Positions 57,296 to 58,683 are shown, counted from the whole stretch's first letter. The stretch: DNA of 63,376 nt, filler included, from Collodictyon triciliatum (GCA_043381765.1; 16 parts of 16 records of this genome joined end to end with filler, not necessarily neighbours in it); one strand, 5' to 3'. Numbers and translations are program-made. The notes: generated by a model from the sequence alone, not told the origin.

Positions 57296-58683
57296 TATAT
57301 ATTTTCGATTTTTTTCATAATCGACGGTACATGAATTATGTTTACTCAGGTCTGTCTCTAAATCGACTAAAGACACTCTTGATGTCTCAAACTGCTGATT
57401 CTCCTCAAAAGTCATGGGGACAAAAGAAACAGCACTTTGTAAACCTGTTGCCATGTATACCCCTGAGGCATTGTACTTTTTTTCTCGCGCTAGAGTATTT
57501 TGTGATTCTTAAGAGATTTGCTATCATGTCTTGTTTGATGAGCCGTATAATATAATTTCTTGCCTGTCTCATCCGCCATGTAAACCAAATTAAACTTGCC
57601 TGCGTCCACTCTAACTGTTCTTTTTCGGTAATAAAGATAACTGCTCTTCGCAAAGTTCATCTATAAATACATTCTTGGGTTTTTGGTTATATTTGAATTT
57701 TGAATTTGAAATAGCTTTCTTTTCAAACAATAAAGACACCGCCAAGCCGTCTGTTTGTATCATGTATTTAAAATTGTAGTCTCTTTGATGAAAGACCCTC
57801 TTCTTCATTTCAAAGAAATCATACCATAGTGTCTCTTTGCATCCTGATATATTCTTCAGTAATGATTTTTTTCTAGACAATACTAATAGACCTATCAATC
57901 GTGTAGTATCTAGAGTAGTATGAGATGGTATATTGTCAGTTCTTGTAGAGATTGGTTGAAGCAGTTTTGTTCCAATGTCCTCAAAAATGTGATTCATGTA
58001 AATCAGACATAAAATGTACTTATTTGGATTGACTTTGACGTCATACTCGATACCACTAACAATATTGCTGGGAATGATACGATGCAAATGCGTTATAGTC
58101 CATCTTTTATATTGTTCCAGTATTTCGAGTTTCTTGAAGATGGCTTTTTTTAAACTTTCGTAACTCTGCCTTTCTAATAGCTTCTGTAATATTTTCATCT
58201 TTAGAAACTGTTTGATTTGTAAAGCGCAGTAACCTCTTTACAAAATGCTCCTTAATGTTTTTATGATAAGCTGTTAACATTTGCTTCGCCAAGCACAGTA
58301 ATAGTGAGACAGTCTAACCAACGGAAAGCGTTCTTCTCGGGACAAAATGAATCGAAAAACATTGAGATAAAAATTCATCATATCTTAACTCATATCTGGA
58401 TGTTTTAAACTTGCGTATCTATCTTGTGAAACTATTCCAACTGTCTTTAAAGCGTATAAAAAAACATTTCATCGATTGTTGGGAGTTGTTGTGATTTGAA
58501 TATGTAACATCTTGCAAACAACTAAGTGCCGGTAACCAAATTATGACACAATAAAACCGTACCGTTGATTTTTTAATAGTCACCCGCATTCTTTACAATC
58601 GACTTTTGAGATGTTTTCACAATTCGATAGTGTGGTTTTACAGACTTTAGACTCTCAGACTCAAGACGCTTTCTTTTCTTCAT
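57296..58683 (-). pseudogene. Fanzor1-like (eukaryotic TnpB) RNA-guided nuclease gene, degenerate and 3'-truncated
   Basis: Joined frames: MKKRKR...YRIVKTSQKSIV, LPTIDE, KQMLTAYHKNIKEHFVKRLLRF, YDVKVNPNKY...YMN, LQPISTRTDNIPSHTTLDT, LWYDFFEMKKRVF...FKYMIQTDGLAVSLLF, RuvC-I-like VRVDAGKFNLVYMAD, KLYYTAHQTRHDS, ETDLSKHNSCTVDYEK. Several stops and frameshifts; no introns. Confidence 0.82.

What the first reader, a model, noticed from the sequence alone, without database searches (positions are those of the whole stretch)
57296..58683. Fossil Fanzor1-type RNA-guided nuclease gene
Seen: five broken minus-strand frames join into one intronless protein of about 450 aa, with a basic NLS-like start (MKKRKR), YRIVKTS, YDVKVNP, MIQTDGLAVSLLF, a RuvC-I-like VRVDAGKFNL, a bridge-helix-like YTAHQTRHDS and ETDLSKHNSCTVDYEK. 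Established: this order of motifs is typical of Fanzor1 proteins, the OMEGA/TnpB-derived nucleases of eukaryotic transposons and giant viruses. Inference: this lineage has hosted a Fanzor family, and intact copies with their omegaRNA may exist elsewhere in the genome. RuvC-II/III, the zinc finger and the omegaRNA are not visible because a LINE tail and a contig break cut the 3' end.
Basis: partly seen in the sequence, partly recalled or inferred. Interest (0 to 1): 0.85.

Follow-up and report, generated by a model that had tools for sequence, protein, structure and literature searches.

The report
Dead, truncated Fanzor1 nuclease gene copy

Summary
On the minus strand, 58683 to 57294 is colinear, without introns, with residues 1-467 of an intact 648-aa relative (P0151). 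Identity is 261 of 459 aligned residues, with 5 frameshifts and 3 in-frame stops. All seven quoted motifs are present.

It is a Fanzor1 gene. A profile of 26 full-length relatives matches three of the pieces in order (E 5.7e-53, 6.1e-12, 1.7e-10). The same profile matches the solved Fanzor1 proteins SpuFz1, PpFz1 and GtFz1 (E 2.7e-96, 1e-92, 5.8e-75). The Fanzor1-specific TDG motif is present. The RuvC-I Asp is kept, but D-P-G has become D-A-G.

RuvC-II, the zinc finger, RuvC-III and any guide RNA are missing. A plus-strand poly(A) retroposon tail (57184-57293) was inserted at that point, and the 3977-base contig then ends.

Public runs hold many diverged copies. Some of them continue in frame past the insertion point, so the lineage hosts a Fanzor1 family.

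The nearest intact relatives (Pfam DUF8286) are mostly from giant viruses. There they sit in about 2.4-kb Fanzor-only elements with terminal inverted repeats.

This is a new member of a known kind, of low interest. No whole genome was held, so intact copies in this organism could not be sought.

The parts
57294..58683 (-). Decayed Fanzor1 coding sequence. It equals residues 1-467 of the intact 648-aa relative P0151 and has 5 frameshifts and 3 in-frame stops.
   Evidence: Frameshift-aware alignment; tblastn; profile matches.
58459..58683 (-). Piece 1: basic N-terminus (MKKRKR) and YRIVKTS, P0151 residues 1-77. In-frame stops at 58575-58573 (TAA) and 58524-58522 (TAG).
   Evidence: A basic N-terminus begins most of the 80 viral relatives' longest reading frames too.
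58304..58456 (-). Piece 2: P0151 residues 79-129, with an in-frame stop at 58387-58385 (TAA).
58170..58301 (-). Piece 3: LAKQMLTAYHKNIKEHF block, P0151 residues 130-174.
   Evidence: Profile match of open frame 58110-58313: E 1.7e-10, profile positions 125-183.
57620..58168 (-). Piece 4: the longest open piece. It holds YDVKVNP (58045-58025) and the Fanzor1 TDG motif (57754-57746). P0151 residues 175-359.
   Evidence: Profile E 5.7e-53, positions 165-355; 750 homologues; best solved-structure hits are PpFz1 and SpuFz1.
57496..57618 (-). Piece 5: RuvC-I motif VRVDAGK. The Asp is kept, but the Pro of D-P-G is Ala. Followed by YTAHQTRHDS. P0151 residues 360-400.
   Evidence: Profile E 6.1e-12, positions 356-400. 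Asp is invariant and Pro at least 90% conserved in alignments A1 and A3.
57294..57493 (-). Piece 6: ETDLSKHNSCTVDYEK block, P0151 residues 401-467. The coding similarity ends here.
   Evidence: weak profile match E 0.062, positions 407-434.
57184..57293 (+). 3' tail of a poly(A) retroposon (AATAAA signal plus an A run) inserted into the Fanzor gene. The contig starts inside it.
   Evidence: 82% identical over 107 nt to 18356-18250 on another contig. The tail motif occurs 5 times in the window against 0 expected. Alignment. In runs X1, X4 and X5, contigs that lie on the tail run on after 57290-57293 with letters unlike the window's and poorly agreed among themselves (agreement 0.55-0.64 where several contigs show it) (table 7).
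58719..58888 (-). A 170-nt stretch, 35 nt upstream of the ATG, that contigs of two runs skip. On the gene's strand it starts GT and ends AG. It is either a 5'-UTR intron or an insertion/deletion difference between copies.
   Evidence: table 5: 1 contig in X4 and 1 in X5, plus one 171-nt variant in X5. Sequence.
60105..60163 (-). A 26-nt copy of the same retroposon tail, flanked by a 17-nt direct repeat (60105-60121 and 60147-60163). This is a heavily 5'-truncated insertion with a target-site duplication.
   Evidence: families D11 and I1.
60473..60499 (-). Third copy of the retroposon tail motif on this contig.

Best explanation
The stretch is a dead copy of a Fanzor1 gene. Fanzor1 is the eukaryotic, TnpB-derived, RNA-guided RuvC nuclease carried by DNA transposons.

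Shown here:
- The copy keeps the front 72% of the protein: a basic N-terminus, the REC/WED part with the TDG motif, RuvC-I, and the following block.
- It carries 5 frameshifts, 3 in-frame stops and a D-P-G to D-A-G change.
- A plus-strand poly(A) retroposon was inserted at 57293/57294, and the contig ends inside that retroposon.
- It cannot make a nuclease.
- It is one of many diverged copies in this lineage, and some of those copies continue past the insertion point.

Inferred from homology with characterised Fanzor1 proteins and from the viral relatives:
- The ancestral element was a short DNA transposon with a single Fanzor gene.
- Its protein entered the nucleus by means of the basic N-terminus.
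- The protein bound a guide RNA transcribed from the 3' end of the element, overlapping the end of the gene and the terminal repeat.
- It cut DNA matching the guide next to a short target-adjacent motif, using the Asp of RuvC-I together with the Glu and Asp of RuvC-II/III and a C4 zinc finger.

None of these last parts is present in the window.
For: Colinearity: the alignment to intact P0151 covers residues 1-467 of 648, with 261 of 459 identical.

Homologues: 750 at E <= 0.001 and 223 at E <= 1e-10. The full-length ones are 600-700 aa.

Profile evidence:
- A1, a profile of 26 full-length relatives, matches the window pieces in order at E 5.7e-53, 6.1e-12, 1.7e-10 and 0.062.
- A1 matches SpuFz1 (8gkh) at 2.7e-96, PpFz1 (9cf0) at 1e-92 and GtFz1 (9cer) at 5.8e-75.
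- P0003 matches SpuFz1 along 14-607 of its 634 residues at E 9.2e-37.
- P0151 matches GtFz1 at 2.1e-28.
- The 208-aa window piece alone has PpFz1 (E 0.014) and SpuFz1 (E 0.3) as its top two of 3 solved-structure hits. The alignment runs through YDV..NP and TDG.
- 9 of 26 A1 members match Pfam Cas12f1-like_TNB, the TnpB zinc-ribbon domain.

Motifs: the TDG motif is named a Fanzor1 hallmark, and D-P-G a Fanzor signature, in PMC10711439 (passages read).

Truncation: the retroposon tail is shown, and the contig structure.

Family in the lineage:
- 460 contigs of run X4 and 516 of X5 lie on 57184-59400, covering 30 of 30 bins.
- Up to 18-19 different contigs cover a single place.
- The listed pieces are about 85-90% alike.
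- In X1, 4 records that match from 57293 upward carry other letters before it. Read by eye on the gene's strand, these continue the frame with residues like P0151 468-477.

Guide RNA in relatives: the viral relatives have a conserved, covarying 3' RNA structure.
Against: - Neither the local Pfam library nor NCBIfam recognises any window piece.
- The direct match of the window piece to a solved Fanzor1 is weak (E 0.014), and two shorter pieces find nothing in the Protein Data Bank. The assignment therefore rests on a chain through intermediate homologues.
- The catalytic C-terminal third (RuvC-II, zinc finger, RuvC-III) and any guide RNA are not in the window. Among 2513 six-frame pieces none matches profile positions above 434 at better than chance level; the best such match has E 5. 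Nuclease identity is therefore inferred for the ancestor only.
- The element's ends, its target-site duplication and its transposon superfamily are unknown for this copy.
- Contig depths are not copy numbers, and the kind of runs X4 and X5 (RNA or DNA) is a guess.
- The host organism was not identified.
Confidence: 0.88

Rival explanations
1. The fragment is a relic of an integrated giant-virus segment, or of a virus-borne element delivered with one. On this reading it is not a copy of a transposon family that multiplied in the host genome.
For: - The nearest annotated clusters of the intact relative P0151 are 92-100% Viruses, commonest Nucleocytoviricota.
- In IMG/VR, 356 of 546 candidate stretches encode relatives. 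Many of the 80 loci kept are giant-virus genome bins, at 38-47% identity to P0151.
- There is a precedent: the Hydra element HMa-1 was suspected to be viral because its flanking genes are viral (PMC3627910, section 7 read).
Against: - Many diverged copies of this very stretch lie in runs X1, X4 and X5, with up to 18-19 different contigs over one place. That fits a dispersed repeat better than a single viral insert.
- The contig carries three host-type retroposon tails, one of them with a target-site duplication.
- No viral gene was recognised on the contig, although the contig is only 3977 bases long.
- The window copy is 57% identical to P0151, P0152 and P0001 but only about 40% to viral copies.
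Confidence: 0.08
2. The gene is intact in the organism, and the breaks are sequencing or assembly errors of a fragmented draft.
For: - The assembly is highly fragmented: contigs of about 4 kb, most of them ending in simple repeats.
- One frameshift lies in a T7 run and one beside an A5 run.
- Single contigs in X4 and X5 carry extra letters near two of the frameshift sites (table 4).
Against: - Three in-frame stops are substitutions, not length errors.
- Three of the five frameshifts are not in long homopolymers.
- The retroposon insertion removes the last third of the gene.
- An independent run, X2, has contigs that match 57308-57458 with 1 difference and 57455-57608 with 4 differences and 3 gaps (table 8).
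Confidence: 0.03
3. The protein belongs to another transposon-protein family and only resembles Fanzor1 in a few short motifs.
For: No Pfam or NCBIfam model matches the window pieces.
Against: - The similarity is colinear over 467 residues.
- The family profile matches three solved Fanzor1 proteins at E <= 5.8e-75, over profile positions 12-601 of 613 for SpuFz1.
- No other solved chain scores below E 0.04.
Confidence: 0.01

Closest known systems
Fanzor1 of Spizellomyces punctatus (SpuFz1, PDB 8GKH, 9CEU-9CEZ), Parasitella parasitica (PpFz1, 9CF0-9CF3) and Guillardia theta (GtFz1, 9CER-9CET)
   Same: The family profile matches them over nearly the full length (E 2.7e-96, 1e-92, 5.8e-75). The order of blocks is the same: basic N-terminus, YD..NP, TDG, D-P-G RuvC-I, then in intact relatives the NEF/DEF-RTS Glu, C4 zinc finger and RD.
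   Different: The window copy is broken, lacks the last 28% of the protein and has Ala for the Pro of D-P-G. Direct similarity to the solved proteins is low (E 0.014).
DUF8286 (Pfam PF26935) Fanzor1 proteins of giant viruses (Nucleocytoviricota genome bins in IMG/VR), usually annotated 'transposase'
   Same: This is the same subfamily. Every one of the 120 listed relatives of P0151 carries PF26935. The nearest Atlas clusters carry it on 74-95% of members. Like the fossil, they are intronless, about 620-635 aa, and most of the 80 begin with a basic N-terminus.
   Different: The viral copies are intact and 38-47% identical to P0151. They sit in 2.37-2.40-kb elements whose 25-nt terminal-repeat pattern has no match in the window, even with 3 mismatches allowed.
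Fanzor1-only Tc/mariner-type elements with TA target-site duplications (PUl-4; the PGv-1 group) described by Bao and Jurka 2013 (PMC3627910)
   Same: They are short DNA transposons with a single Fanzor gene and terminal inverted repeats. The viral relatives found here have TA at both outer ends in 15 of 15 complete elements, but the search pattern itself began with TA.
   Different: For the window copy neither end is known, so membership of that transposon superfamily cannot be judged. No comparison with the published terminal repeats was made.
Old or dead Fanzor1 families such as CMe-1A of Cyanidioschyzon merolae (Bao and Jurka 2013, PMC3627910; passages read)
   Same: It is a multi-copy Fanzor1 family whose copies have diverged by 10-20%.
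   Different: Some CMe-1A copies still encode intact proteins. Whether any copy does so in this lineage is unknown.

Membership tests
Fanzor1 | Significant, colinear sequence similarity to experimentally characterised Fanzor1 proteins | tested here: met
   Window pieces against family profile A1: E 5.7e-53, 6.1e-12, 1.7e-10. A1 against SpuFz1, PpFz1 and GtFz1: E 2.7e-96, 1e-92, 5.8e-75. Direct match of the 208-aa piece to PpFz1: E 0.014.
Fanzor1 | TDG motif in the WED domain (PMC10711439, passage read) | tested here: met
   MIQTDGLAVSLLF at 57763-57725, with TDG at 57754-57746. It aligns with the TDG of PpFz1 and SpuFz1. T, D and G are invariant in A3.
Fanzor1 | RuvC-I catalytic Asp within a D-P-G motif | tested here: inconclusive
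   The window reads VRVDAGK. The Asp is present and aligned with the Asp that is invariant in A1 and at least 90% conserved in A3. The Pro, at least 90% conserved in both alignments, is Ala.
Fanzor1 | RuvC-II Glu, C4 zinc finger and RuvC-III Arg-Asp in the C-terminal third | not testable with these tools
   That part of the gene lies beyond the retroposon insertion and the contig end. Among 2513 six-frame pieces of the window, none matches profile positions above 434 at better than chance level; the best such match has E 5. The features are present in intact relatives P0003 and P0151. No genome is held.
Fanzor1 | Guide (omega/re) RNA encoded at the 3' end of the element | not testable with these tools
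   The 3' end is missing from the contig. Rfam found nothing on the contig. In 32 viral relatives the 3' 240 nt fold into a conserved structure: 6 pairs change on both sides, against 2.9 +/- 0.6 in shuffles (0 of 500 reach the observed value) and at most 2 in slid controls.
Fanzor1 | Carried by a eukaryotic transposon with defined ends and a target-site duplication | not testable with these tools
   Neither end of this copy could be defined. That the stretch is multi-copy is shown by many diverged contigs in runs X1, X4 and X5.
TnpB / Fanzor2 (IS200/IS605 and IS607 type) | Match to prokaryotic TnpB models (the OrfB_IS605 and HTH_OrfB_IS605 type, names recalled) or to solved TnpB or Fanzor2 proteins | tested here: not met
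   No TnpB-type family in Pfam or NCBIfam matched any window piece. The family profile finds only three Fanzor1 chains plus LaTranC at E 0.04-0.05 among 177,635 distinct solved sequences.

The most novel reading that the evidence does not exclude
The lineage may carry a still-living, multi-copy Fanzor1 family of the giant-virus (DUF8286) type. It may be transcribed and spliced: two runs skip a 170-nt stretch with GT..AG ends just upstream of the ATG. If so, intact copies with their guide RNA exist elsewhere in the genome, and the family records an exchange of an RNA-guided nuclease element between giant viruses and this host.
Probability: 0.25. Interest if true: 0.45.

Novelty: new member of a known kind. 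Interest (0 to 1): 0.22.

Why it matters
By itself the copy matters little. It is dead, and Fanzor1 genes, often in several copies per genome, are already catalogued in thousands across eukaryotes and their viruses (PMC10530073).

Its modest value is as a flag:
- It shows that this unidentified eukaryote harbours a many-copy Fanzor1 family.
- The nearest intact relatives of that family sit in giant viruses, which bears on how these nucleases move between viruses and hosts.
- Intact natural copies, if present, would be further compact RNA-guided nucleases to test.

Tried and rejected
- Local Pfam and NCBIfam scans of the pieces gave only chance-level, unrelated hits: PH_25 E 0.05, DUF5958 E 0.026, MbnP E 0.11.
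- Solved-structure searches with the 56-aa and 71-aa pieces gave 0 hits.
- Search of the window's own genome was not possible, because none is held.
- tblastn and a profile search of the whole window found no second Fanzor copy and no C-terminal fragment. The other 15 contigs are unrelated pieces of the assembly.
- The viral terminal-repeat pattern has 0 matches in the window with up to 3 mismatches.
- Rfam gave no match on the contig, and only a tRNA elsewhere in the window.
- The look-up of sequencing runs listed no RNA holder. All 10 rows hold small shares, 0.05-0.08 of the sampled words.
- Whether X4 and X5 are RNA is a guess, so no claim on expression is made.
- Parts of the stretch without cover in X2 (21 of 30 bins) are not interpreted.
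- Host identification through the Atlas with a Mind-bomb-like reading frame gave no usable taxon; the top hits were Streptophyta and Ciliophora clusters at scores of 0.90 or less.
- Earlier findings by place and by sequence returned nothing.
- An apparent 35-residue insertion before ETDLSK was considered as an intron. It was rejected because P0151 has the same stretch as coding sequence.
- No structure prediction, complex prediction or family tree was run.
- Supplementary files of the papers were not opened. Their lists of Fanzor loci and host species could show whether this family or host is already catalogued.

Full report
**What the window is.**
- The 63,376-base window is not one stretch of genome.
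- It is 16 separate contigs joined by linkers of 44 N, TTAATTAATTAA and 44 N.
- They are listed roughly by falling length, 3996 down to 3977 bases, with a last piece of 2116. Most end in simple repeats.
- The finding lies on the contig 57184-61160. The neighbouring contigs say nothing about it.
- No whole genome is held for the window.

**The observation.**
- On the minus strand an ATG at 58683 opens MKKRKR.
- A frameshift-aware alignment to the closest intact relative, P0151 (648 aa, found), covers its residues 1-467. Identity is 261 of 459 aligned residues (56.9%), and no gap is longer than two residues.
- The lesions are five frameshifts (near 58458, 58303, 58169, 57619, 57495) and three in-frame stops (TAA at 58575, TAG at 58524, TAA at 58387). 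That gives six reading pieces rather than five.
- A 35-residue stretch before ETDLSK looked like an intron when compared with P0003. It is coding in P0151, so the copy has no intron in its coding part.

**What it is.**
- Local Pfam and NCBIfam do not recognise the pieces.
- The 208-aa open piece (57611-58237) finds 750 proteins at E <= 0.001 and 223 at E <= 1e-10 among 1.84 billion representatives. The full-length ones are 600-700 aa.
- One of them, P0003 (634 aa), matches solved SpuFz1 along residues 14-607 at E 9.2e-37. It also matches PpFz1 at 7.2e-34 and GtFz1 at 7e-16.
- P0151 matches GtFz1 at 2.1e-28, PpFz1 at 2.7e-24 and SpuFz1 at 3.7e-23.
- A profile of 26 full-length relatives (A1) matches these three Fanzor1 proteins at 2.7e-96, 1e-92 and 5.8e-75. 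Nothing else scores below E 0.04.
- Searched against 2513 six-frame pieces of the window, the same profile hits four pieces in the right order:
  - 58110-58313: E 1.7e-10, profile positions 125-183.
  - 57614-58237: E 5.7e-53, positions 165-355.
  - 57493-57660: E 6.1e-12, positions 356-400.
  - 57203-57508: E 0.062, positions 407-434.
- On its own, the 208-aa piece has PpFz1 (E 0.014) and SpuFz1 (E 0.3) as its two best solved-structure hits. The alignment runs through YDV..NP and TDG.
- Nine of the 26 relatives match the TnpB zinc-ribbon model Cas12f1-like_TNB.
- The TDG motif is described as characteristic of the Fanzor1 WED domain, and D-P-G as a Fanzor RuvC signature (PMC10711439, passages read).
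- The window has TDG at 57754-57746. At RuvC-I it reads VRVDAGK: the catalytic Asp is kept, but the conserved Pro is Ala.

**Why the rest is missing.**
- Coding similarity stops at 57294.
- From 57293 down to the contig start at 57184 lies, on the plus strand, the 3' tail of a poly(A) retroposon with an AATAAA signal.
- It is 82% identical over 107 nt to a copy on another contig (18356-18250).
- Its last 23 nt occur five times in the window, against none expected.
- Beside the other long copy lies a reading frame with a weak zf-RVT match (E 0.023). 'LINE' is therefore likely but only weakly shown.
- On the same contig, a 26-nt copy of the tail sits between 17-nt direct repeats (60105-60121 and 60147-60163). 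This is the mark of a 5'-truncated retroposition.
- In the whole window, no piece matches profile positions above 434 at better than chance level; the best such match has E 5. Those positions cover RuvC-II, the zinc finger and RuvC-III. tblastn with full-length relatives found none either.

**Other copies.**
- No listed run holds more than 0.08 of the stretch's sampled words.
- Even so, laying four runs at 80% likeness was informative.
- Runs X4 and X5 (coded organisms; kind guessed as RNA, possibly DNA) gave 460 and 516 contigs on 57184-59400, covering 30 of 30 bins.
- Up to 18-19 different contigs cover single places. The listed pieces differ from the window by about 10-15%.
- At many places every contig reads a letter other than the window's, including within the first in-frame stop. 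Single contigs carry extra letters near two of the five frameshift sites. At least some of the lesions are therefore private to this copy.
- In the freshwater-metagenome run X1, four records that match from 57293 upward carry different letters before it. Read by eye on the gene's strand, these continue the frame with residues resembling P0151 468-477. Other copies thus lack the retroposon and go on.
- Run X2 has contigs nearly identical to the window at 57308-57608.
- Depth over the retroposon tail is roughly ten times that over the Fanzor part. Summed contig depth is not a copy number.
- The repeat continues upstream of the ATG, at least to 59400, the end of what was laid.
- One contig in X4 and one in X5 skip 58719-58888. 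On the gene's strand that stretch begins GT and ends AG, and it lies 35 nt before the ATG. It is either a 5'-UTR intron (if the runs are RNA) or a length difference between copies.

**Relatives elsewhere.**
- The closest proteins are P0152 (331 aa; 59% over 72% of the 208-aa query), P0001 (291 aa; 54%) and P0151 (52% by BLASTP; 57% in the frameshift-aware alignment). Two of the three are in NCBI records whose organisms I could not look up.
- Every one of the 120 listed relatives of P0151 carries the precomputed family PF26935. The Atlas names that family DUF8286.
- The nearest Atlas clusters are 92-100% viral, mostly Nucleocytoviricota.
- In IMG/VR, 356 of 546 candidate stretches encode relatives. 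The best 80 loci are 38-47% identical to P0151, and many are giant-virus genome bins.
- All 80 carry a long open frame. Most of these are intact Fanzor frames of about 620-635 aa that begin with a basic stretch, as the fossil does.
- N-terminal nuclear localisation signals of Fanzors have been tested experimentally: 21 of 22 were functional (PMC10530073, passages read).
- Pairs of copies within one viral bin share units of about 2.0-2.4 kb.
- A 25-nt terminal-repeat pattern is found exactly in 44 of the 80 loci. In 15 loci it bounds complete 2370-2395-base elements that hold only the Fanzor gene.
- The outer two bases are TA, as in the mariner-type Fanzor1 elements of Bao and Jurka (PMC3627910, section 7 read). 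However, my pattern began with TA, so this is not an independent test.
- The last 240 nt of 32 such elements span the gene's end and the terminal repeat. They fold into a conserved structure with six pairs changed on both sides, against 2.9 +/- 0.6 in shuffles (0 of 500 reach it) and at most 2 in slid controls.
- That fits the published picture of a Fanzor1 guide RNA that includes the terminal repeat (PMC10711439).
- None of this is present in the window. The viral terminal repeat has no match there.

**How it worked, and what it is now.**
- Shown: a broken, truncated Fanzor1 copy that cannot encode a nuclease, one of many diverged copies in its lineage.
- Inferred by homology: its ancestor was a short DNA transposon with a single Fanzor gene. 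The protein entered the nucleus, bound a guide RNA from the element's 3' end, and cut matching DNA with a RuvC site completed by the missing C-terminal third.
- Rivals:
  - A relic of an integrated giant virus (about 0.08).
  - An intact gene spoiled by sequencing errors (about 0.03). The substitution stops, the retroposon and near-identical contigs from an independent run speak against it.
  - Another protein family (about 0.01).

**Comparison, novelty and verdict.**
- Fanzor1 has been known since 2013 from metazoans, fungi, protists and large DNA viruses (PMC3627910).
- A 2023 survey reported 3655 unique Fanzor nucleases, often in several copies per genome (PMC10530073).
- Earlier notes of this scan judged similar fossils to be ordinary relics.
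- This is a new member of a known kind.
- The host was not identified. The other contigs carry Mind-bomb-like, O-methyltransferase, NHL, GATA, SAM and leucine-rich-repeat genes.
- I could not test whether this lineage or family is already catalogued, because the papers' supplements were not opened.
- Interest is low (0.22).
- The boldest reading still open is a living, spliced, virus-related Fanzor1 family with intact copies elsewhere in the genome.

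Noticed in passing
window 1-63376 (linkers at 3989-4088, 8085-8184 and so on, to 61161-61260): The window is 16 separate contigs joined by linkers of N44, TTAATTAATTAA and N44. They are ordered roughly by falling length (3996 to 3977 bases, with a last piece of 2116), and most end in simple repeats. Neighbouring contigs are therefore not genomic neighbours.
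   Followed up: yes
window 60105-60163: A 26-nt retroposon tail (TTTGAATCGAATAAAGG plus an A run, on the minus strand) lies between exact 17-nt direct repeats. This is a heavily 5'-truncated insertion with its target-site duplication.
   Followed up: partly
window 58719-58888: Contigs of two public runs join 58718 to 58889. The skipped 170 nt begin GT and end AG on the Fanzor strand, 35 nt before the ATG. This is a possible 5'-UTR intron, or a length difference between copies.
   Followed up: partly
window 59038-59183: Many contigs of runs X4 and X5 replace about 70-140 nt here with other letters. Summed depth peaks at 58960-59033 and 59182-59255. The upstream part of the repeat varies between copies or contains another, more abundant repeat.
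   Followed up: no
loci L012, L013, L015, L025, L027, L028, L032, L037, L038, L041, L045, L057, L059, L063, L067 (e.g. L012:3527-5911): Giant-virus contigs carry complete 2370-2395-base elements that hold only a Fanzor1 gene. They are bounded by inverted repeats matching TACACCTTTnCnCATTTAAAACGCC. The pattern is exact in 44 of 80 loci fetched. TA at the outer ends would fit a mariner-type target duplication.
   Followed up: partly
last 240 nt of 32 viral elements (e.g. L024:5666-5905): There is a conserved RNA structure spanning the end of the Fanzor gene and the terminal repeat. Six pairs change on both sides (0 of 500 shuffles reach this; slid controls give at most 2). It is a candidate guide-RNA scaffold of this viral subfamily.
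   Followed up: partly
L024:3105-3155: A 53-nt inverted copy of the element's 3' end lies about 700 nt upstream of the full element. It may be a solo terminal repeat or the remains of a second element.
   Followed up: no
window 57308-57608 in run X2; whole stretch in run X1: A 'fungus metagenome' run holds contigs nearly identical to this locus (1 to 4 differences per 151 nt). A freshwater-metagenome run holds 162 diverged contigs of the family. This organism or close kin is therefore present in environmental samples.
   Followed up: no
window 37318-37388 (minus strand): A tRNA gene, 62.7 bits against Rfam RF00005.
   Followed up: no
window 8379-11423, 16963-17913, 28819-29490, 47939-48568, 61631-62860, 2-1872: Long open host reading frames with ZZ and MIB_HERC2 (Mind-bomb-like), O-methyltransferase, NHL-repeat, SAM and GATA domains. 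One further frame looks by eye like leucine-rich repeats and was not scanned. They show a eukaryotic host but did not identify it.
   Followed up: partly
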